A DNA stretch of 33,883 bases from Collodictyon triciliatum (Eukaryota): positions 1-33,883 of the forward strand of contig JBHJMP010000867.1 in the NCBI GenBank assembly GCA_043381765.1. Direction: 5' to 3'. Numbering within the stretch: the first letter of the stretch is position 1; every line of letters begins with the position of its first letter. A program made the position numbers and the translations under genes. Of this stretch, positions 1 to 32,294 are shown piece by piece. The notes under the pieces are model-generated. The model had not been told where the DNA came from. It saw only the letters and a list, made by a program, of their open reading frames with translations, and ran no database searches.

Positions 1-102
1 CAATTTTTTTTTTGTTTTAAAATAAGTAGATAGTGGAGTGCCTACATTTTTCACATGGGCTGTAGCATGCAAAATCACTACGAGCATAAGCTTTGAGGGT
101 AC

Positions 103-16289
<16,187 letters not shown>

Positions 16290-16309: not shown

Positions 16310-16445
16310 TAAAAGAAAAGAAAAGAAAAGAAAAGAAAAGAAAAGAAAAGAAAAGAAAAGAAAAGAAAAGAAAAGAAAAGAAAAGAAAAGAAAAGAAAAG
16401 AAAAGAAAAAGAAAAAGAAAAGAAAAGAAAAAAAGAAAAGAAAAG
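16310..16445. repeat. (AAAAG)n microsatellite
   Basis: Visible pentamer array immediately upstream of the first EML coding exon. Confidence 0.95.
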
Positions 16446-16765
16446 ATCTAAAGTGCAATATCAGCATGTTTGCCCAAGCCCTTCACAGTTTATTCGCTCA
16501 TTTTGCAGCCCTTCATCCTGCCAGGCTACAAACTCTGATTCATAGGAGTCGAGAAGCATGTTAGGGTGTTGGATGCGGTTCTTCATGGGCGTCTACTCGA
16601 ATGGTCACGCCAAGATGCTAATTGGACGATCTTCTGCCATCTGTCTTGTTCTCTTCGCTTCAGCGTGCCATTGGGTTGATTCGCTTTCTGAGAGCAATAG
16701 TTTTCGCTTTTGTGAACAACCCTCTGGATTGGTGGATGGCTTGAGTTTATATGGCTCACGACGGA

Positions 16766-17529: not shown

Positions 17530-20323
17530 ATGGATTATCTGCACGTAGAGCCATTGGTTATAGGGTTCCAGTCCTCTGCCGACGACGTTTCTGCGTGGCT
17601 CAAGCAGGAGGGTTTTCACGCACCAGACATCGAAACTCTCAGTGGATTCAATGGTCGCTCCGTTTTAGCTCTTTCCAAAGTCTAGTTTTCTTCGTTTTCG
17701 TTTTTTTTCGTTTTTTTTTCGTTTTTTTCGTTTTTTTCGTTTTTTTCGTTTTTTTCGTTTTTTTTCGTTTTTTCATTTTTATGTTTGTGTTTGTGTTTAT
17801 GTTTATGTTTTATGTTTATGTTTATGTTTATGTTTATGCTTTGGAATGTGGAAGTGGGTGTCTTTGCTCAACAATTCACTACTTTTTTTTCGCAGAACGA
17901 TGCGAAGGAGCTTTTGGGAACTGTTCGTGGAATACGATTGTTTTACGCAAAGTCGGAGCAATATAAAAGATTATTGGAGAAGGAGGGTGATTGATTGTCA
18001 ACTCTGTTTGATATACATCTCCTTGAGTTATATGTGTCAATTTCCATGTCATAAATCTTGTGTTGTAATAAGCATATCACAATGTTTCCATCATTAGAGA
18101 CCGACCGCGCATCAAAACAATATGGAACCCAAATAGATGTAGACGATCCACTCAGCGCAGAAAAGGTATTATGTTTTCTTTCATATATGGCCCATTCCTT
18201 TTCCGATATAAAAATGTAGAACTCGCCTTGAAATATAATTTAAACAATTTAATATGGCCACCGACAGCCGCTTTTTTCTTGTAGAAGCATCAACACTCTT
18301 TGCCACATACTTCCGTCTCAAGAATGTATTTCTTTTTCCTGCTTTATGTTTACCGTCTGACTATTTTGTAATTAAAATAGGTGAGGAAGAAGGAGGGATT
18401 TATCATCGATATGGACGGTGTAATCTATCACAGAGGCATCGTCCTTCCTGGAGTAGACCGGTATCTACCCCAATCCATAGCTAACTTGGATTAAATATCA
18501 TAATTGCAGTATTGTTCTCGGTTGTCTAAGTGATTCTAAAATGAACTTCTTTTTTTTCATGGCCAGTTTCCTTCGTTGGATAAAAAACAATGGAAAGAAT
18601 TATCTCTTTCTGACAAACTCAAGCGACAAGTCACCGCAACAACTGTCACAGAGACTTGCCGGGATGGGAATCGAGGTATCCACTCATTTAATTCAGAAAG
18701 TAATCCTGATATATCTGCTTCAGGGATATTAATTTATCAAATATGAAGCTTATGTCTTTGTTCATGTCGGAAGTGATACTTGAACATCCCATTCCAATAC
18801 GTGGTTCAAGTCGCTCTAAAATCCTTTTGCAGGTCCCTCCATCCAACTTCTACACTTCCGCCCTATCTACGGCACACTTTCTGAACACTCAAAAGCCAAA
18901 GGGGTCAGCTTATGTGATTGGCGAAGGTGGTCTGTTGGAAGCGCTTGCTGATGTTGGATACAAGTATCACTCAGCTTTTCAAATTATTCATTTAATCATC
19001 TGGAATATATCCCATTTGTTTTAAAACTGTTTCTCTATTATGATGCATCACCATCCTTCGTATTTCCGCCTTATTTTGTTGTTTTGATTGCTCCGTTAAT
19101 CTTTCAAAATGATTATGTTAGAATTACAGATGTAAACCCCGATTATGTGATTGTTGGAGAAACTCGAGACTATGATATTGCCAGAATCGAAAAAGCCATT
19201 CAGCTCGTGCAAAGCGGTTTGAATAGCTTACACAATTCTATATACTTTATGTGCATAAAATATACTCATTCCAAGCTGCTGAATTCATTTCTCTTTCAAA
19301 AGATTGAAACAAGTACATTTTACACTAGCTAACCATTTTCCTTAATTCAGGCGCCAAGCTTATCGGTACAAACGTTGATATTTATGATCGTGTTGGAAAG
19401 AATAACATGCCAGCTTGCGGCTCTCTAATCAGCCCGATCCAAATATGCACTGGTATATATATATATGCATATGCATGCATTCCTTCTTCGATAACTTTTC
19501 TTGTTTTCGATATCACTTGTCCCAAATGAAAACTAAAGACCATAAGACATCGTTTTTTCTTCTGGTTTTTTCTTCTGGTTTTTTCTTCTGGTTTTTCTGG
19601 TTGGTATGTTGTTTATTTTTTCTTCTTTTTTTTTTTAATGTTGAAATATTCTCGCCTGGAATTAAACATTCCTAGAAGAGAAAAACCAATCCAGAAATCA
19701 TTCTTAAAATCAAACATAATATAGGAAGTCGAGCATATTTTTGTGGGAAACCTAATCCAATGATTATGCGCTCTGCTCTACGAAAGCTTCAAGTAGCCAG
19801 GTATGTCAATCCGACATTCATACACGACTATATTTTTATCTTCAAATGTCCATACTTTCTTCTTTCCAATAATGATACCCCGAGATAAAGAATAAGTAAT
19901 ATAATTCATATACTCTCATATGTATACGCATAATAGCTCACACGCTGCCATCATCGGAGACCGAATGGATACAGACATCATCGCTGGATTAGAGTCTGGA
20001 ATCGACACCGTCCTTGTCCTCAGTGGTGTCACAAGCCCAGCAGACCTCATCAAGTTTTCATACTCCCCCAGTATGTCATATGTGCCTTTTACATAATTCA
20101 AATAATGATAAACAAAGCAAAGCAAAGCAAAGCAAAACGAACGCTAGGAAATTAATGAATGAACGAATATGTAAGGGACTCACGTTCCTATTTCTTGAAC
20201 AAGAAAAAAAAAAAGAAGAAACATGGTGATAAACTGTGGCAGTCCATTTACTGATGCTCAAATCTTGTAGATTACATCTTCAATGGCATCGGCTCCATCG
20301 TAGACCATGTTTCGATCGAATAA
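17530..20323 (+). CDS. nagD: N-terminal SAM-like domain fused to a NagD-type HAD subfamily IIA phosphatase; about 11 exons
   Basis: Spliced product: SADDVSAWLKQEGF...SGFNGRSVLALSK|NDAKELLGTVRGIRLFYA (SAM-like), then FIIDMDGVIY (motif I), FLTNSS (motif II), TSALSTAHFL, AYVIGEGGL, PDYVIVGETRDY, LIGTNVD, PACGSL, GKPNPMIMRSAL (motif III), IIGDRMDTDIIAGLESGIDTVLVLSGVT (motif IV), TAA at 20321-20323. All junctions are GT-AG and in phase. The start is uncertain because another exon may come from the gap (17361-17446). Confidence 0.9.
17685..17837. repeat. Compound T-rich microsatellite, (TTTTTTTCG)n then (TTTATG)n, intronic
   Basis: Visible arrays in the intron 17680-17895 that splits the SAM-like domain. 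Confidence 0.9.
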
Positions 20324-20608: not shown

Positions 20609-23600
20609 CTAATCCTCCGCCGCAAAGTATACTTTCCTCTCGTGTGTCATGTTAAAGTCAGTCAGGGAGGACTGGACCATGTTTGTGGCGCGCTGCAGCA
20701 TGTCGCTGATGACAGACTCAGGCGTGTTGTGTTGAACCATCGTGTGGTCCGGGTCAGCCAGCAAGAGCGCATAAGGCAGCACAACCCCGTCAATCATCAC
20801 AAAGTCGTACCGCCCAAGTTCCAAGTGCGAGTTGAGATCAATCAGCTGGCTCGGGCATGTGACCATCAGCCCGAAAGGCACTTCGCGCGAGGGCACCTCC
20901 TCCAGATAGATTCGGCGCGCCTCTGCAGAGAGCTCCAACACATTCGCGCCCACAACCACAAACCCGCAATCAAACCCCTCGTTGAAGAGCCGATTCACCG
21001 CCATCAGCTGCGCTCGGAACAGACTTTGGTAGGCCGGCTGCACAAAGCGGCTCAAGCCTTGTATGCTCAGGAATGGCTCTGCATGCAACGCCTCGAACGG
21101 CCGAGCGCCTTGCAGCTCTGTGTACGCATCGGCAGATGATTTGTCCATGACCAGCGCGGTCGTGAGTCCAGGCCTCCCCTTTTCTGTGGCGGTTTCTCGC
21201 AGTTTCTTGTAGATAAGCTCTGTGTATATGTGCTTCAGAATCTCATCCACGTTACCATAGTCCCGAAGCAGCTCGGTAATCAGGACCGTGGGCTGCAAAC
21301 GCGAGCGCCCAGCCCCTGTGAGTCGGATGATGGCCAAGACAGGCTCGATTTCGCTCGAGGTAAGCTCGTTGCCGCTTTGCAGTTCCTGTAGCACGTGAAT
21401 CACATTCAATGGATGGACCTTCTGCTCGAGGATGGGCCCACTTGCACTCACGCAGACAATTCGCTTCGATAAAAAGTCCTGCTCTCCTTGTGCATTGGGC
21501 GAGCTCCAAAGACGCATGGCAATCATATCGCTTTCCTCCAGAGTTCTCTCTTCTATCCCGACAGCCCCATGGTAAATGCATCCAGATTGGAAATCAATTG
21601 TGATTTTCTGATGGTCAAAACATACGAGATTCTCAAACTCCTCCGAGCAAAGAATGATACATGGCTTCCGGAGCCTATGTGCAAACTCTTTACAAAAGGC
21701 CTCGTGTTGGTGCTCTGTGGTGAGAATAAGAGCCCCAATCAACTCCCCAAACTCAAGCTCTTGTAGCTGCTCTACTGATTTGCGTGTCATCAAGACAAAG
21801 TCGCCCACCGATATCTTTTGAATATCCTCTTCCTCGTTGATAACAATCAGCGTTCTGCTGGCTGCTCCCTGGAAGATTGTCGACTTTCCCGATGCTAAGA
21901 GACTGGCAGAGTGTGCTTTCTGAGCCGTCGGTGTCACCATACCCAGGAGCGTTTCTGTGGATGAGAGGACAGAAACTACATTCAGGAAGTTTGGCACAGA
22001 GGAGTAGCATACGTCCACCAATGCAGCTATTTTAGCAGCGACTTCAGGGTATTGAACAGACAGTCTGTTGAGAGCCTCTCCGCTCAGGATTAGCTCAATC
22101 TTATGGGCTTTAGCCACTTTGGCAACATGATATATCGAAAGGTAAATCTCTCGTCTGCTCTCGTCCGAGACTTCCAGGAGATAATTGCCCATCGCGTCGA
22201 TGCGAATGTACGGGCTCTTTTTTGTCATTTGAGACACCTGCTGTCCGAGATTGATTGCCACAAGTTGACTTGTGATTGCTGTGGTGGTTATTGCTGAAGA
22301 TGTTGCAGTTCCATATGTTGTGGGTCGATGATGATTCTGCGATGAATCCTTTGACCTCCCATGCATATTCTCTGGGTACATTGGTGACCAGAAAGTGTTT
22401 CTCACAAACTTGAAAATACCCTGTGTCAAGTCATTGGTTCCCAGGGAGAAAAAAGGAAGAAACTTGTAGCGCCTTGCAAATGAGTTCATAATTTCGGCAT
22501 ATTGTTCGATTTGTAGAACGTTTGCAGGGACCTCAATCATAACACCCATGCTTCTTGGAGAGACTCCATAAGACCGTAATATTTTCAGAGTGACCTCTGC
22601 ACATTCTGGAAGCTGCTCAGGATATCGGACGCAAGAAAAAACGGGGTCCATTTGCATCCCACTCTTGCCGATTTCCCCAAGCACTTCCAACTCCAGCATG
22701 AATGTTGGTCCATTTACTTTGGATAAGAGATAAGGTGGCCCGCGGAAGCCAACAATTGAAAATTCTTGCAGTAAATCCGTAAAAATGTTCCCGCCGATGA
22801 GAGTCTTCATTTCGCGTAGTTTAAAGTCCAAAAATCTGTATGTTCGCTTTTGCCAAAAGGGGCAAGCAGCAGAGATGGAGCAGATTACGCTTGCGTGAGT
22901 CCTTTTGAAAAACGATATTGCTGATGGACGTGACCAGCCGGTAGGAATGTATGCAGCTATTCTGCGGGATATCCTCTTTATTACCGTTGGATGCTGGCGC
23001 AAAACCCGGACATCTTCCAGCAACGTCGGCCAAAATTCTCTGGGTGAATGTATCCCCCAAGTTCGAAGCTTTTCTAGCTGTGCTTTTTCTGTCGGCGTGA
23101 GGCCACCCCGTGCATCCCCGTCCAAAAGTGACATCACTTCATAGGCAATCAAAGCTCGCGGGTTGATTCCCACGTAATGGCAACTGACCTCTGCCCGCAG
23201 TATGCAGAGTCCATATGCAAAACTGCTCTGGTTAAGCTTGCTGATACGCCAAGCATCCAAGTAGTTGTTGAGAATCCAACCAACTTTCCTCCGAAGATTG
23301 GGCAACCTCTCAATATCGATCTTCATATTCACCTGGCGAACAGGCAACTCTAGAGGCTCAACGGCGCAAAATGTGTCTATCAGACGTTGAAGCCGTGACG
23401 CTCGGTCGTATTTTCCTTCTTCTCGGAGTCTGTTTGACTTTGCTTGGAGGAGCGATTTCGCTGACGCGGCTAGATAAATCATCCCTTGATTGCCATCCAC
23501 GGTTATCAAGACCCCGTCTGTGCTGAGAACTTCTTCTACCCATTCTGCCCTATCCGGGTCCTCACACCGCACGTCCTCGATAAAGTATTGGATGCCGACT

Positions 23601-26511
23601 ACAGAGGCTATATTCAGTCCGATGGACTCCACTGACGCATGAGACGTCTTTGTCCCGTACATGGCAACAACCCCAAGACTCTTTTTCATGGCTGAAATGT
23701 CAGTTGGTCGAGTGTTTGTAGTGATAAGAAATTCCACCTTGTCTCCTCCAGCGTTGGTACGAATCAAATCTTCAGATAATGCATCGGTACCACTCAAGGA
23801 TGTGTGAATGGCACCAGATGCAGCCATGGATGTTGCAATACCGGATAGATTTGTGCTTCCTATCAAAGGGACAACGACGCGCCCGTCCGGGCTTGTACCT
23901 TCAATGAATCCGTTGGGATACATTCGAATATCACATCCTTTTTTGCGCAAGCCGCCGATATCGATGATAGTTCGGCGGTCGTGATAGCTCAACGGGTCTG
24001 TCAGGTCAGTTGGGAAGGTGTAATCGGATGATTGAATGATTAAAGGGACTTTTTGGCCCAATTCGCTAGGAAGGCATGTCTCCATACCTTTCACCAACTG
24101 CGTCAGGAAGGATGTGTAGCTTTTTCTTGTTGATGAATCTGCCTGATGGTAAAGCCAGTGCCAAATAGTGCTGAGGGGGTTAATGTCACCGGGTATTGGT
24201 GTCCATGTCGAATGGGATGCATCTTTGAAAAACTGGACAATTCGCTGGTCGATTCCATCCATGAAGAGAGCATCCGCCAGTTGGTTGATTTTCTTTGGAT
24301 GGAGCCACTTCAAAAAGCTACGGAGAATGTAGATGTCGGTCGAACGATCACATATCTTTGCTATGTTGAGCTTTTCAATCTCAGACAAGCAAAATGTAAG
24401 GATGTGTGCCGGGTCCACTGGTAAGTTTACTGTTTTACGTTGTGATGTTTTTGCATCCTCCAACGCTTTCTTAATCTGCTCAGTAAAATGAACGTTTTCT
24501 GGATTTGTCATGTCCCACGCCTCTGCTTCTCGTAGGATTTCCTCGGCATCGTTCAGAGAACCTGTCCAAACCTTTGAAGACAACATCATAAAAAAAAAGG
24601 TTGAAAATGTGCTTCAGAATATTTATTTTTTTGTTTGGTTTTTTTTTTTTTTTTTTTTTTGCATAATATCATTGCTATGAGAATAACACACTTTTTTCGG
24701 TCCGTTCAACTGTCTCAATGTCAAATATTGCCTAACGCCATTGTCATCGTCAAATGCAAGATAAACATCAACATCTGCAGTTACATCCCCCTGAAATTAA
24801 AAAAATAGCGGCAGAAGCCAATATTTTTTTTATTTATTAATCGAATAATTTATATAATTTTTTATTTATTGGTATTACTAGTTTTTTCTATATCTTTCTA
24901 AATATTTCTTAATAGTTCTATTTGTAAAAGAAGGGTATGTTTTAATATGAAATGAAAGCAAATGAAAAAGGAAATATATTAGTATATTTTTTCTAAATTA
25001 ATTGGAAACATACTTGAGCAAGCGCTTCACCCCACCCATAGGACGAATTCATATAAAGTATTCTTGATCGTCTTTCAGACTCTAAATTTCTATTTGTCCC
25101 GAAAATTCTTCCAGTAAATCCGGTGCTTGTATCTAGACAATACACATACGCACATGACGTCCTTTCGATAGACGGCCTCTCGTAATCTATCCCTTGCGCC
25201 TGCTTCTGAATAATCACAGCCATTTCAGCGTAATCAGGGTGGTAGAACAAATGTCTGTACTGCTTCAGCAGGTTGACAAGTTCGTCAGAGTCTTCCCAAT
25301 CATCGAGGGACTCGAGCCACTGCTTCAGAGATAGGGAACTAAACAAGGCTGCCGGCGAAGCGTAGGATGTCTCTGCCTGGCTCTGAAAAAATCGGTAGAT
25401 CTGCCTTGTTAATGTGTCTGACATCATCCTTGATTTGATTGTGGTCAGCAACTCGAAAACACGAGTATGTTGGGAGTAGTTTTTGAGGACTTGCTGGTCT
25501 CTGTAGGATAGCACGCGTTCGGTGTAGTTGCCAGCCCAGTCTCGCTTAACGGCCTCACGCACGTTCTCTGTGCCTCGAATGTTTAGAAAGGTTTCGTACT
25601 GGCCAGGAAAAGCAGCAAAGCTTGTGTCTTCCATTGTGCCAGTCGAGCGCACTGCAACTGTAACACCATGAACGTCCTCGCTCATAAGGTCCACAAACTT
25701 GATGGCTTGGGATGTGTTGATTTCTTCCCAGACCAAAAGGCTATCCCTGAGCTCGCACAGCTGCTCGGTGACTGAAGGGATTGTTTCCTTCCAGGATTCA
25801 ATCGAAGAGTGATTCTTGAATAAAGATTTCAGCCTCTCGATTTTTTCAGAGATAAGGACAAATGACATCTTAAGATTTCCAGAACTTCCTTGTGAGAATG
25901 AACGACGCAGTTGAGGGGATGAATATGAGACAAACTTTGATGGCTCAGTGGAATCATGCGAGAGTTCGGCTTGGATGTGGTTGATCAATTGAACACAACG
26001 TTCTGCTAAATCCTCTCTTGTTACCTCCATATATGCCGTGTCAATTGCTTCTCGAAGCGTGTCATCCAGCTGGATGTTCATGAACCATTCATGGATTTGG
26101 CTTTGAACGGCCCGTCGGTTCTGATTAGGTGATTTACTTAAGATTAGCTTTAAAAAAAAAGCGGATAAAATGGAAATAGCCTGCAAACTTTAAATATGGT
26201 ATTCATATGTCCAAATATGTCTGTAGGGGGTATAAAAACCAAAACAGAAAGGGATATGAGAGAAACAAAAAGGATACCTTTGTATCAGTAGTGTTTAGAT
26301 TAAATGTAAGGTGGATTATTCCATCATTTAGGGTTCTCTTTTCGTCGACTCGATGGTTATTTGTAAAGTGGCGATATGCAAGTGGTGATATAATTCGGAA
26401 AGGCTTTCCAGGGTCTCCATTTAATGCAAGACGAGAAAGATTCGCGCCTTTGCCACCAACACGACCGATTTCTGTTGAAGCTGGGTCCTTTGGGTTATAT
26501 ATCATTTTCAT
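20609..26511 (-). CDS. ppsA: PEP synthase (pyruvate,water dikinase)-like protein, about 1800 aa, with a duplicated degenerate C-terminal His-domain + PEP-binding module
   Basis: Exons 26511-26278, 26120-25014, 24790-24692 and 24571-20609 join in phase 0. Motifs: VGGKGANL, VAVRSTGTMED..F.GQYETFLNI, MAVIIQK, SSYGWGEALAQ|GDVTAD (ATP-grasp); GTKTSHAS..LNIASVVG, ITVDG (His domain); LRAE, GINPRAL, RFLDFK..MKTLIGG, VGFRG, MIEVPAN, FSLGTNDLTQ (PEP barrel). Further 5' exons are possible near 26766-26887 and 26998-27034. The symbol denotes homology, not proven activity. Confidence 0.88.
26121..26277 (-). other. GT-AG intron with a U12-consensus donor in the dikinase gene
   Basis: Donor AAG|GTATCCTTT. 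3' region GCTAATCTTAAGTAAATCACCTAATCAG has only a partial U12 branch match. Splicing gives DTK|NRRAV in frame. Confidence 0.5.
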
Positions 26512-27088
26512 ATCTGCCAAAGGATAAAAATAAAAGTTTTTTTTTAGAAATGAATAGAAATTCCTCTCGAGACATCTTTAATATATTCATGGATATGTTT
26601 ATAACTGAATAAGGTGATATCGAAGCTATTTCCTCTCATTTATTTATTACAAACTGAACTGAAGGTGCGCATTAGAAGGAAAATTATGCTTTAAAAAACT
26701 ACGGGCCATGAACGAAGATAATATTCACGATCAATTTTCTTTGAATCGTATAAAGTGGGGAAAACCTTGATGGCCAATTTTGATTTCTCCAGCTATCTCT
26801 TGGGCAAGGCCAGAAAGAAGATTGGTTGAGTTCGACCGAGGAATCTCCCATGTGACCCTTTTACGATACAACTTGTTTTGAGTTCGACAACCAAGACGGT
26901 TTTGTCTCTACTTTTCTAGGTATATCTTATTTTATGGTATTTTTGTTATTACATTCAAGTGGTGGGTGAATTATCCGTCAAAGTTAAGGCTGCTTACTTT
27001 TGTAAGGTGTCTCCTCGTGGAAACATCGCTTGAGCTATGAAAAAAAAAAAAGGATTCTCGTTGGACATTGAAGTATTTCCAGTCTAAG

Positions 27089-27146
27089 GAAACGAAACGA
27101 AACGAAACGAAAGGAAACGAAAGGAAACGAAACGAAACGAAACGAA
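27089..27146. repeat. (AAACG/AAAGG)n microsatellite
   Basis: Visible pentamer array upstream of the dikinase gene, pyrimidine-rich on its sense strand. Confidence 0.85.
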
Positions 27147-27339
27147 AGGAAAGGGAGAAAAATAGACTCTCGAATAGAAGGGAGATACAGAAACAGAGTT
27201 ATTATATCTTTCAGAACAGGAGCCAAGAAGCTAAAGCCTCGTATTTTTGGAAGCGACTGGTCATCGTAAGTTGTCGATCATAAAGAACCAAGAGCAGAAT
27301 CTTCATCCAGGCCGAATCCAACTCGCAAAGTACTCCATC

Positions 27340-28194: not shown

Positions 28195-30742
<2,548 letters not shown>

Positions 30743-31376: not shown

Positions 31377-32294
31377 TCAAGATATGTGCATCCTGCCACA
31401 AGCTGACACGATACTAGCCGAATATGACACATTTGCTTTACGGAATCGTGATGGAGAAGCCGTCTTTCCGTGATGGGTGGGCATAGCTGGAGCATGACCT
31501 TGGCTGTGAGCGCTTCCATTCCCAAGATGAAGCGATGCACACTTCAGACTGGGCAAAATAGCATTTGTATGACCGTGTTTGTCAGCTGGAGTCCTTCTAT
31601 GACCAATACAGGGAGATGCAGAATGATGCAAAGGAACAGCAGGTTGGGCGTATTGCTGCAGAGTGGAGGTTGAGGATGAAAGTGAATAGGAGTGATGATG
31701 CGCATGTGTTTGCCCATCCAGCAGCGAGGAAGCAGCAGATTCATCAGAGGCCAGCAGCTTCTGTTGTGATGTGACATCCTGAGCAAAAGCCTCCATCATG
31801 CGGGAAATCTTGTCGTAAGGACAGCGTAGGCGGAAATGAAGCACCGCAAGGAAGTCTACCTCCAGCGCGTTGACATCGAGCAAGGCAATCTCGGCAAGGT
31901 TTGCAAAAGTTGCGTTGTTGTGGGGGATGTCTTCCAGCGTCTTTGTGGCAAGCAGCAAGCCAACCAGGAAAAGCGGACGCACGTTGCGGACCGTCAAGGA
32001 AATCCCTTTGGCGCCCACATAACGCTGCATCAGCACAAGACCTGTCAACACAGCCTCATCCGAGGCCACATCGTACTCGCGCACAAGCCGCAGCATCACC
32101 TCCACACTCCGCTCGATGCCCACCACATCAAAGAGCGTTTCCCTTGCTTTGTGGCTCGCTTCTTGACTGCGGCTGCAACTGGCTTGTAGATACGCTGCGA
32201 TGCGCTCGTGAATCTCTTGGCGCGTCTCGCTGTACTGCGTGGCCATGACGGCTCGGCTGAATGTGTCGTCGGCGTCGTAGCGGTGTTGGCCCAT
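31377..32294 (-). CDS. Single-cyclin-box cyclin (PHO80/cyclin P-U-like), 305 aa, intronless
   Basis: Cyclin box: EAVLTGLVLMQRY...LTVRNVRPLFLVGLLLATKTLEDIPHNNATFANLAEIALLDVNALEVDFLAVLHFRL, followed by a His/Ser-rich low-complexity tail. Confidence 0.88.
   Translation of the reverse strand: MGQHRYDADDTFSRAVMATQYSETRQEIHERIAAYLQASCSRSQEASHKARETLFDVVGIERSVEVMLRLVREYDVASDEAVLTGLVLMQRYVGAKGISLTVRNVRPLFLVGLLLATKTLEDIPHNNATFANLAEIALLDVNALEVDFLAVLHFRLRCPYDKISRMMEAFAQDVTSQQKLLASDESAASSLLDGQTHAHHHSYSLSSSTSTLQQYAQPAVPLHHSASPCIGHRRTPADKHGHTNAILPSLKCASLHLGNGSAHSQGHAPAMPTHHGKTASPSRFRKANVSYSASIVSACGRMHIS

What the first reader, a model, noticed from the sequence alone, without database searches (positions are those of the whole stretch)
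22070..24090. Key dikinase catalytic residues are substituted while the phospho-His is kept
Seen: the first module keeps GGKG, VRS, TSH (His codon 23639-23641, Thr at -2), LRAE, MIE and GTND. By manual alignment the GICG motif reads LILSGE (Ser codon 22082-22084), DIEW...IVQARPET reads GMETC...IIQSSDYT (~24020-24090), and GFRGAGRY reads GFRGPPY. Known: in PPDK/PEPS the GICG Cys is the acid/base for the enolate, and the DxE and QxR residues bind Mg-ATP. Inference: the ORF is intact over kilobases yet changed at these positions, so it may use another substrate or nucleotide, or act as a phospho-relay or sensor rather than an ordinary PEP synthase.
Basis: partly seen in the sequence, partly recalled or inferred. 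Interest (0 to 1): 0.75.

Follow-up and report, generated by a model that had tools for sequence, protein, structure and literature searches.

The report
Protist dikinase with altered catalytic residues
A protist gene of bacterial origin encodes a giant relative of PEP synthase that keeps its phosphate-carrying histidine but has replaced three catalytic residues, so it probably no longer works as an ordinary PEP synthase.

Summary
Alignments of 22-23 relatives, an HMM of 49 canonical PEP synthases and two confident AlphaFold models place Gly670, Ser690 and Ser1338 at the positions of C. symbiosum PPDK Asp321, Arg337 and Cys831. Glu323, Gln335, Lys22, Arg92, His455, Arg561, Arg617, Glu745, Asn768 and Asp769 equivalents are kept. 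GFRGPPY is real but touches a variable column.

The ORF is only the last exon. The gene has at least five exons (20609-26847, minus strand), four AT-rich GT..AG introns and eukaryotic neighbours, and encodes about 1828 aa: ATP-grasp, His domain, TIM barrel, then a degenerate second swivel/TIM module. Its closest relatives are Diphylleia rotans (76%) and Rigifila ramosa transcripts. Together they sit inside a clade of long PEPS-like proteins whose named members are Omnitrophota, all of which keep every catalytic residue. So the gene came from bacteria, and the losses arose in the protist lineage and were then conserved (TIM barrel 91% identical between species).

Function is inferred only: most likely a re-specified or attenuated phospho-His protein rather than a bulk PEP synthase. 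New variant of a known kind; moderate interest.

The parts
26766..26847 (-). Exon 1 (5' end unresolved), phase-1 donor
   Evidence: tblastn of P0002 residues 3-29 gives 74% identity. The donor GT is at 26765-26764. There is no in-frame ATG between the upstream stop and this exon.
26278..26513 (-). Exon 2: start of the ATP-grasp domain, with GGKG (Lys49 = PPDK Lys22)
   Evidence: tblastn gives 85% identity over 80 aa. The HMM places K49 at the GGK column.
25014..26120 (-). Exon 3: ATP-grasp core (VRS Arg264, AED Glu270, GWGE) with family-specific inserts
   Evidence: Pfam PPDK_N scores 75.2 bits against a cut-off of 27. tblastn gives 70% identity over 383 aa.
24692..24790 (-). Exon 4 (33 codons)
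   Evidence: tblastn alignment and GT..AG borders.
20609..24571 (-). Exon 5 (1320 codons plus stop). The listed ORF 20609-24589 starts 6 codons inside intron 4.
24017..24088 (-). C-terminal beta-hairpin of the ATP-grasp: G670-M-E672 in place of DxE, Q688-S-S690 in place of QxR
   Evidence: MAFFT alignment of 22 rows. In the AlphaFold model of P0002 1-899 these are strands 674-683 and 690-696. The RPH ATP-binding domain 5hv6_A aligns at 307 of 308 residues to model 31..698, Z 23.3, rmsd 2.6.
23456..23740 (-). Swivelling phospho-His domain (residues 786-880); Thr817-Ser818-His819, with the His codon at 23639-23641
   Evidence: Pfam PEP-utilizers scores 43.1 bits against a cut-off of 23.1. The domain is 86.3% identical to P0002.
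21917..23311 (-). First TIM barrel (PEP/pyruvate domain, residues 929-1393). It keeps R967, R1087, R1118, E1188, N1221 and D1222; Ser1338 (22082-22084, AGC) replaces the catalytic Cys.
   Evidence: In the AlphaFold model of the window's own 1200 aa (pLDDT 83.4), Ser1338 is model residue 710, right after strand 706-709. 8a8e_A aligns at 298 of 302 residues, Z 23.2, rmsd 2.7, model 301..765; 2ols gives Z 27.4.
22262..22399 (-). Low-complexity Ser/Thr-rich insert inside the TIM barrel, after GTNDLTQ
   Evidence: pLDDT is under 50 at model residues 605-650. The insert is shorter and different in P0002 and absent from most relatives.
20612..21916 (-). Second, degenerate module: a swivel-like domain without a conserved His, plus a TIM-like domain lacking the Glu, Asn-Asp and Cys
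   Evidence: HMM second-domain matches and the family alignment. The ESM Atlas returns 'putative PEP-binding protein' clusters at 0.92. The module is 65% identical to P0002. Its fold was not searched on its own.

Best explanation
Window 20609-26847 (minus strand) is one intron-bearing eukaryotic gene for a protein of about 1828 aa. The domain order is ATP-grasp, swivelling His domain, PEP/pyruvate TIM barrel, then a degenerate second swivel/TIM module.

It descends from the long PEP-synthase-like proteins of PVC-group bacteria (named relatives: Omnitrophota). A transfer into an ancestor of CRuMs protists brought it in.

After the transfer three catalytic residues were replaced and then held fixed. 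PPDK Asp321 became Gly670 and Arg337 became Ser690 at the nucleotide site. Cys831, the acid/base for the pyruvate enolate, became Ser1338 at the PEP site.

Everything else needed to bind nucleotide (Lys49, Arg264, Thr283, Glu672, Gln688), to carry phosphate (Thr817, His819) and to bind Mg-PEP (Arg967, Arg1087, Glu1188, Asn1221, Asp1222) is kept.

Inferred mechanism: it is still a swivelling phospho-His protein that binds a nucleotide and a PEP-like acid. Both half-reactions are altered, so it works as a re-specified or strongly slowed phosphotransferase, or as a metabolite sensor. It does not work as a bulk PEP synthase.

Shown: gene structure, homology, residue states, origin and conservation. 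Inferred: all chemistry.
For: Gene model. tblastn of the Diphylleia transcript protein P0002 covers residues 3-1821 in four collinear pieces, one of which spans intron 4. There are four GT..AG introns of 252, 157, 223 and 120 bases. Intron GC is 19-31% against 48% in the CDS. Eukaryotic neighbours (EML propeller exons, a cyclin) lie on the same contig.

Domains. Pfam and NCBIfam hits. AlphaFold gives pLDDT 88.4 and 83.4. VIA-align Z is 23-27 to PEP synthase, RPH and PPDK.

Residues. Alignments, with numbering.

Origin. The window plus P0002 is sister to the Omnitrophota protein P0010 (SH-aLRT 100) inside the long bacterial clade (96-99). With Rigifila added, the three CRuMs rows form one clade (92), sister to P0010 (100). 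P0010 and all 12 other long relatives in that clade keep D, R and C.

Selection. Identity to P0002 is 90.7% in the TIM barrel, 86% in the His domain and 80-87% in the ATP-grasp cores. It is 65% in module 2 and 48% in the low-complexity inserts.

Role of the Cys. In P. furiosus PEP synthase 'only Cys756 is engaged in the catalysis' (bioRxiv 10.1101/2022.08.11.503304, passage).
Against: No activity was measured. In rifampin phosphotransferase, which has the same ATP-grasp, Glu297Ala (a Mg ligand) stays fully active, while Lys22, Arg117 and Thr136 matter (PMC4844700, passages). The window keeps the equivalents of those three, so ATP use may be normal.

A Ser hydroxyl with a water could still pass a proton to the enolate (my inference).

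The quantitative effects of D321, R337 and C831 mutations in PPDK are recalled from memory. Ye et al. 2001 is not held, and three searches found no readable source.

In one search, 16 of 123 family proteins lack the Cys, so Cys-less barrels are not unique.

The state of the Cys position in Rigifila is unknown, because P0011 is cut off inside the barrel.
Confidence: 0.58

Rival explanations
1. It is still a working PEP synthase or PPDK-type enzyme. The three substitutions are tolerated: Ser plus water protonates the enolate, and the remaining Glu and Gln hold Mg-ATP.
For: All other catalytic and ligand residues are kept. The TIM barrel is the most conserved part, at 90.7% identity. RPH Glu297Ala is active (PMC4844700). 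Relatives are fused to enolase, PGM and a histidine phosphatase, which points to a role in lower glycolysis for the family.
Against: Every bacterial long relative keeps D, R and C: 13 of 13 in the clade. Across the wider hit set Cys is present in 107 of 123, Asp in 99 of 108 and Arg in 101 of 109. Both half-reaction sites are hit at once. The Cys is described as the catalytic one in PEP synthase.
Confidence: 0.25
2. It is a pseudoenzyme with no phosphotransfer at all, kept for a structural or regulatory role (for instance through the second module), or a gene on its way to decay.
For: Catalytic residues are lost in both active sites. Module 2 is already degenerate in the whole family.
Against: The frame is open over 1828 codons. 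The catalytic domains, including the His motif and all PEP/Mg ligands, are more conserved than module 2 and the inserts. Transcripts exist in Diphylleia and Rigifila: P0002, P0145 and P0011 come from transcriptome assemblies.
Confidence: 0.12
3. It is an artefact: bacterial contamination, or a misalignment that only seems to move the catalytic residues.
For: The gene's GC (48%) stands out from its flanks (36-37%). The closest non-protist relatives are bacterial.
Against: Four spliceosomal-type introns and eukaryotic neighbouring genes lie on one contig. An independent transcriptome protein shows the same residues. MAFFT, HMMER and the structure models agree on the columns.
Confidence: 0.03

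Closest known systems
PEP synthase (pyruvate, water dikinase; e.g. Neisseria meningitidis 2OLS, P. furiosus PPSA 8A8E)
   Same: Same three domains in the same order. It is the best sequence and fold match. The His motif and the PEP/Mg ligands are kept.
   Different: About 1000 residues longer, with large inserts in the ATP-grasp and a second degenerate module. The Asp, Arg and Cys are replaced. It scores 194 bits against the curated cut-off of 598.
Clostridium symbiosum pyruvate phosphate dikinase (1DIK/1KBL)
   Same: Homologous domains. The residue numbering used here (K22, R92, D321, E323, Q335, R337, H455, R561, R617, E745, N768, D769, C831) was read from this chain.
   Different: It is a weaker match than PEP synthase (TIGR01828 56 bits against 843). 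D321, R337 and C831 are not conserved in the window.
Long PEPS-like proteins of Omnitrophota MAGs (P0010, 2596 aa, 43% identical; also P0014-P0028)
   Same: Same ATP-grasp inserts and the same second swivel/TIM module. P0010 is the sister in both trees.
   Different: These are bacterial and intron-less, often longer and sometimes fused to other enzymes. They keep all catalytic residues.
VadK (Rv1127c), a kinase evolved from PPDK (PMC13400623, passages)
   Same: It is a precedent for a PPDK-family protein that left PEP/pyruvate metabolism while keeping the ATP site and the catalytic His.
   Different: The paper's AlphaFold model of VadK shows only an ATP-binding and a kinase (His) domain. The window keeps a highly conserved barrel and instead changes single residues.
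Rifampin phosphotransferase and the phenolic dikinases HpeHI, CreHI, PpsAB (PMC4844700, PMC12167813)
   Same: Same ATP-grasp and swivel His domain. Fold match Z is 22-25. They show that the scaffold can be re-aimed at other acceptors.
   Different: Their acceptor-binding domain has a different fold. Here the third domain is the PEP-type TIM barrel.

Membership tests
PEP synthase (NCBIfam NF005057 / TIGR01418) | ATP-grasp (PPDK_N), mobile His domain and PEP-utilizers_C barrel in one chain | tested here: met
   Pfam hits; fold matches.
PEP synthase (NCBIfam NF005057 / TIGR01418) | Score above the curated equivalog cut-off | tested here: not met
   Full-length orthologue P0002 scores 194.1 against 598 and 179.4 against 739.75. 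The window's exon-5 product scores 112.5 and 97.4.
PEP synthase (NCBIfam NF005057 / TIGR01418) | Phospho-carrier His in a T-S/C-H motif | tested here: met
   T817-S818-His819.
PEP synthase (NCBIfam NF005057 / TIGR01418) | Catalytic Cys of the barrel (PPDK Cys831, P. furiosus Cys756) | tested here: not met
   Ser1338. Cys is present in 21 of 23 aligned rows.
PEP synthase (NCBIfam NF005057 / TIGR01418) | ATP-grasp DxE Asp and QxR Arg (PPDK Asp321, Arg337) | tested here: not met
   Gly670 and Ser690. D is in 18 of 22 rows and R in 18 of 22. The Glu and Gln are met.
PEP synthase (NCBIfam NF005057 / TIGR01418) | PEP/Mg ligands (PPDK Arg561, Arg617, Glu745, Asn768, Asp769) | tested here: met
   R967, R1087, E1188, N1221, D1222.
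PEP synthase (NCBIfam NF005057 / TIGR01418) | ATP + pyruvate + water gives AMP + Pi + PEP | not testable with these tools
   This needs an enzyme assay.
Pyruvate phosphate dikinase (TIGR01828) | Score above the curated cut-off | tested here: not met
   56 bits against 843.45 for P0002.
Long PVC-group PEPS-like proteins with a second degenerate module (no curated name) | Placement inside the clade in trees of both halves of module 1 | tested here: met
   SH-aLRT 96-100 and 97-100. These are quick searches without bootstrap.
Long PVC-group PEPS-like proteins with a second degenerate module (no curated name) | Second swivel-like plus TIM-like module lacking the catalytic Glu, Asn-Asp and Cys | tested here: met
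Long PVC-group PEPS-like proteins with a second degenerate module (no curated name) | Full canonical catalytic set in module 1 | tested here: not met
   All 13 bacterial members of the clade have it. The window, P0002 and P0011 do not.
Enzyme I of the PTS | N-terminal HPr-binding domain (PEP-utilisers_N) and no ATP-grasp | tested here: not met
   No PF05524 hit at E up to 1 on the exon-5 product or up to 0.1 on full-length P0002. An ATP-grasp is present.
Rifampin/phenolic small-molecule dikinases | RPH-type acceptor-binding domain instead of a TIM barrel | tested here: not met
   The third domain matches PEP-binding barrels at Z 20-27.

The most novel reading that the evidence does not exclude
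An ancient transfer from an Omnitrophota-like bacterium gave CRuMs protists a giant dikinase. It was then rewired at both active sites into a new activity of the PEP-utiliser superfamily. Either the phospho-His passes phosphate to an acceptor that needs no carbon protonation, or the protein is a non-turnover sensor of PEP and nucleotide whose output runs through the conserved but catalytically empty second module.
Probability: 0.25. Interest if true: 0.75.

Novelty: new variant of a known kind. Interest (0 to 1): 0.5.

Why it matters
The locus is a clear case of a large bacterial gene, from a candidate phylum known only from metagenomes, that became a spliced and conserved nuclear gene in a deep-branching protist group. 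The active-site changes can be dated to the period after the transfer.

It gives a natural experiment on what the Asp321, Arg337 and Cys831 positions do in the dikinase scaffold. It also points to a whole uncharacterised family of PEP-synthase-like proteins that carry a second, catalytically empty swivel/TIM module. If the protein has a new acceptor or a sensing role, that would add a function to a well-studied enzyme superfamily.

Tried and rejected
- Search for short fragments covering the Ser region: 3071 candidates, none at E <= 0.001. No further orthologue was found to test the Cys column.
It returned ordinary PEP synthases at 21-31% identity, which says nothing about close relatives.
- Literature on Cys831, Arg337 and Cys502: nothing usable. 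Ye et al. 2001 is not held. PMC5371819 has no residue-level text.
- Search for the family in print: I saw no paper on this protein family or on a Diphylleia PEP-synthase transfer in those two listings. I read only titles and abstract starts.
- Earlier findings of the scan: nothing.
- No whole genome is held for the window, so I could not ask whether the organism also has a canonical PEP synthase or PPDK.
- Sequencing runs: only small shares (0.05-0.14). Near-identical short contigs occur in freshwater metagenomes. Three contigs of one metatranscriptome lie inside exon 5. No joint across any intron was seen, so the splice model rests on the orthologue's transcript and on the splice signals. Uncovered parts prove nothing.
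- The automatic tally gives wrong residues for the window at the D, E, Q and R columns, because HMMER aligned module 2 there. Those entries were ignored.
- Module 2 was not folded and searched on its own. In one search the listed matches span model residues 78-892.
- My first guess that DMTNPEN (residues 528-534) might be the DxE site was dropped.

Full report
**What is at the coordinates.** The window holds one long ORF on the minus strand, 20609-24589, of 1326 aa. Pfam finds in it a PEP-utilizers mobile domain (residues 288-369, 43.1 bits) and part of PEP-utilizers_C (612-731, 34.1 bits). NCBIfam ranks PEP synthase first, but far below its cut-off (112.5 against 598). The rest of the window is 35-37% GC with few ORFs. 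Pfam hits on short ORFs are to EML beta-propellers and a cyclin, with weaker ones to a HAD hydrolase and peptidase C54. This is a eukaryotic contig.

**Gene model.** The best database relative is a 1826-aa protein from a Diphylleia rotans transcriptome (P0002, 76% identity over the whole ORF). It carries an N-terminal PPDK_N domain that the ORF lacks.
- tblastn of P0002 on the window gives four collinear pieces in three frames; the longest runs through intron 4, so the pieces resolve into five exons.
- Reading the junctions gives exons at 26766-26847 or longer, 26278-26513, 25014-26120, 24692-24790 and 20609-24571.
- The four introns are 252, 157, 223 and 120 bases long, all GT..AG. They are 19-31% GC against 48% for the CDS.
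- The spliced product is 1828 aa with no internal stop.
- The first six residues of the listed ORF are intron.
- The 5' end is open. There is no in-frame ATG between the upstream stop and exon 1, and a Diphylleia isoform has 11 more N-terminal residues.
- Public runs gave no read across an intron, so splicing is inferred from the orthologous transcript and the splice signals.

**Checking the observation.** To test the manual alignment I collected relatives with an exhaustive HMMER search (136 proteins at E <= 0.001). I built an HMM from the 49 of ordinary PEP-synthase length and read the residues at the motif columns.
- link these columns, through a PPDK-like protein (P0006), to chain 1dik_A of C. 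symbiosum PPDK. The linked columns are K22, D321, E323, Q335, R337, T453, H455, R561, E745, N768, D769 and C831. R92 and R617 are matched by motif and by reading chain 1dik_A (P0006 was not aligned to the model at those columns).
- That these numbers are the literature's catalytic residues is recalled. It is supported by the PDB titles 'R337A mutant', 'K22A mutant' and 'T453A mutant'.
- The window keeps K49, R264, E270, T817, S818, H819, R967, E969, R1087, D1090, R1118, E1188, N1221, D1222, T1224 and Q1225.

**The three substituted positions.** HMMER could not align two regions because of inserts, so I aligned them with MAFFT.
- Around the Cys (23 rows), K-I-E-L-I-L-S-G-E-A-L-N-R-L lines up with G-L-C-G-Q-A-I-V-K-L. 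Cys is present in 21 of 23 rows, and Ser only in the window and P0002. The closest bacterial relative, P0010, reads L-K-L-C-G-E-A-L-N-K-L.
- Around the ATP-grasp hairpin (22 rows), G-M-E lines up with D-M/I-E and Q-S-S with Q-S/A/R-R.
- In that hairpin alignment Asp is present in 18 of 22 rows, with Gly in the window, P0002 and Rigifila P0011.
- Glu is present in 22 of 22 and Gln in 21 of 22.
- Arg is present in 18 of 22. The exceptions are Ser in the window and P0011, Thr in P0002 and Phe in P0003.
- The codons are GGT, TCC and AGC.

**Structure check.**
- An AlphaFold model of P0002 residues 1-899, built on alignment A1, has pLDDT 88.4 and pTM 0.89. It puts G-M-E and Q-S-T on two adjacent strands, 674-683 and 690-696.
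- The isolated ATP-binding domain of rifampin phosphotransferase (5hv6_A) aligns at 307 of its 308 residues to model 31..698 (Z 23.3, rmsd 2.6). HpeI aligns to 30..704 (Z 22.4). So the hairpin closes the ATP-grasp despite roughly 350 residues of inserts.
- A model of the window's own 1200 residues (20612-24211) has pLDDT 83.4. Its barrel matches the PEP-binding domains of PEP synthases: 2ols at Z 27.4 and rmsd 2.2; 8a8e_A at 298 of 302 residues and Z 23.2.
- Ser1338 is model residue 710, directly after strand 706-709, in a block of pLDDT 95.

**How unusual are the changes?** In the 144-sequence set the module-1 columns read as follows:

| Column | Canonical residue present |
|---|---|
| Lys (K22) | 97 of 97 |
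| Asp (D321) | 99 of 108 |
| Glu (E323) | 102 of 108 |
| Gln (Q335) | 99 of 109 |
| Arg (R337) | 101 of 109 |
| His (H455) | 123 of 125 |
| Cys (C831) | 107 of 123 |

The window's own entries for D, E, Q and R in that tally are spurious and were ignored.

**Where the gene came from.** The sources name P0002 as Diphylleia rotans and P0011 as Rigifila ramosa, both CRuMs.
- The next relatives are proteins of 1700-3655 aa. The named ones are Omnitrophota MAGs: P0010, P0016, P0017, P0019 (Ca. Aceula meridiana, on a 538-kb contig) and members of the P0024 cluster. That is 5 of the 13 in the clade; the other 8 are unnamed.
- P0003 is from Ca. Auribacterota.
- A tree of the His domain plus barrel used 37 rows and 404 columns; P0011 was left out because it fills only 56 columns. 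It puts the window and P0002 as sister to P0010 (SH-aLRT 100), inside the long bacterial clade (96-99), with 15 canonical PEP synthases as outgroup.
- A tree of the ATP-grasp plus His domain used 34 rows and 468 columns. It recovers window + P0002 + P0011 as one clade (92), sister to P0010 (100), inside the long clade (97).
- Both trees are quick searches without bootstraps.
- The simplest reading is one bacterium-to-protist transfer before collodictyonids and rigifilids split. Asp-to-Gly and Arg-to-Ser/Thr then arose on the protist stem. Cys-to-Ser arose at the latest in the collodictyonid line; Rigifila's barrel is cut off.

**Is it still under selection?** Identity between the window and P0002 is highest in the barrel (90.7% of 290; 86.7% of 105 at its end). 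The His domain follows (86.3%), then the hairpin (85.7%) and the ATP-grasp cores (80.0-86.9%). Identity is lowest in module 2 (65%) and the low-complexity inserts (about 48%). A decaying gene would not show this pattern.

**What it most likely does.** The nucleotide-site residues shown to matter in the homologous rifampin phosphotransferase are Lys22, Arg117 and Thr136. All three are kept here, as K49, R264 and T283. In the same enzyme, loss of a Mg-ligand Glu was harmless (PMC4844700, passages). So nucleotide binding and His phosphorylation may survive the loss of Asp and Arg.
- The Cys is the residue 'engaged in the catalysis' in the PEP-binding domain of P. furiosus PEP synthase (bioRxiv 10.1101/2022.08.11.503304, passage). 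I recall it as the proton donor to the pyruvate enolate in PPDK and Enzyme I. A Ser is a much poorer acid.
- All PEP/Mg ligands are intact and the barrel is strongly conserved. I therefore read the barrel as still binding a PEP-like acid but not turning it over in the canonical way.
- I put about 0.58 on 're-specified or attenuated phospho-His protein, not a bulk PEP synthase'. I put 0.25 on 'still a PEP synthase', 0.12 on 'pure pseudoenzyme' and 0.03 on artefact.
- VadK of M. tuberculosis, a PPDK-derived kinase, is a precedent for such a shift (PMC13400623, passages).

**The second module.** Every member of the wider family carries, after the first barrel, a second PEP-utilizers_C-like domain that lacks the Glu, the Asn-Asp and the Cys. 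The long forms also carry a swivel-like domain there, without a conserved His. The ESM Atlas groups the window's module 2 with 'putative PEP-binding protein' clusters (0.92). Its role is unknown.

**Verdict.** The finding is a new variant of a known kind, of moderate interest.

Noticed in passing
P0024, P0020, P0015, P0003 (relatives, not in the window): Some long bacterial relatives are fused to other enzymes: enolase C-terminal domain (P0024), all four PGM/PMM domains (P0020, 3655 aa), a branch-1 histidine phosphatase (P0015) and a GT9 heptosyltransferase domain (P0003). The first three suggest very large lower-glycolysis fusion proteins in Omnitrophota-type bacteria.
   Followed up: partly
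window 20612-21916 and all family members: A second, catalytically empty TIM-like module follows the first barrel in the whole family. That includes 1100-1470-aa forms that pass the PEP-synthase cut-off (P0026 at 814.7 bits, P0029 at 937.8 bits). One Arg (model column 609) is kept in most second modules, and an Arg/Lys pair often replaces Asn-Asp.
   Followed up: partly
P0003 (Ca. Ancaeobacter aquaticus, Auribacterota): This bacterial relative independently has a degenerate ATP-grasp hairpin (K-I-E and D-A-F instead of DxE and QxR). Its first barrel, including the Cys, is intact.
   Followed up: no
window 26848-27147, minus strand: There is no in-frame ATG upstream of exon 1 before a stop. An out-of-frame ATG lies at 26849-26851. 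The true start is probably in a further 5' exon.
   Followed up: partly
window 22262-22399: A Ser/Thr-rich low-complexity insert sits inside the first TIM barrel, after GTNDLTQ. It is poorly conserved between the two collodictyonid sequences and is predicted disordered.
   Followed up: no
window 494-12973, minus strand: Short ORFs match the first and second EML (echinoderm microtubule-associated protein-like) beta-propellers. This is probably one multi-exon gene.
   Followed up: no
window 31377-32294 (minus) and 30392-30742 (plus): There is a PHO80-type cyclin ORF (PF08613, E 3.5e-12) and a weak peptidase C54 (Atg4-like) fragment (E 3.9e-4, below the cut-off).
   Followed up: no
window 16311-16446, 17686-17842 and 24619-24669: Simple repeats: (AAAAG)x27, T-rich 9- and 6-base arrays, and a long A run in intron 4 where laid contigs seem cut. 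The 16-18 kb stretch is 28% GC, with overlapping ORFs on both strands that have no Pfam hit.
   Followed up: no
window 20609-25519 (pieces): Short contigs 95-100% identical to parts of the gene occur in several freshwater metagenomes. Three contigs of one metatranscriptome lie within exon 5 (22469-22619, 22639-22789, 23225-23459). This is a weak hint of transcription in nature.
   Followed up: partly
P0068, P0092, P0097, P0110, P0142 and others (hits): In one search, 16 of 123 PEPS-family hits lack the barrel Cys (G, H, S, T, D and others). Several are 430-500-aa swivel+barrel proteins that also replace the Asn of Asn-Asp by Met. This looks like another uncharacterised Cys-less subfamily.
   Followed up: no
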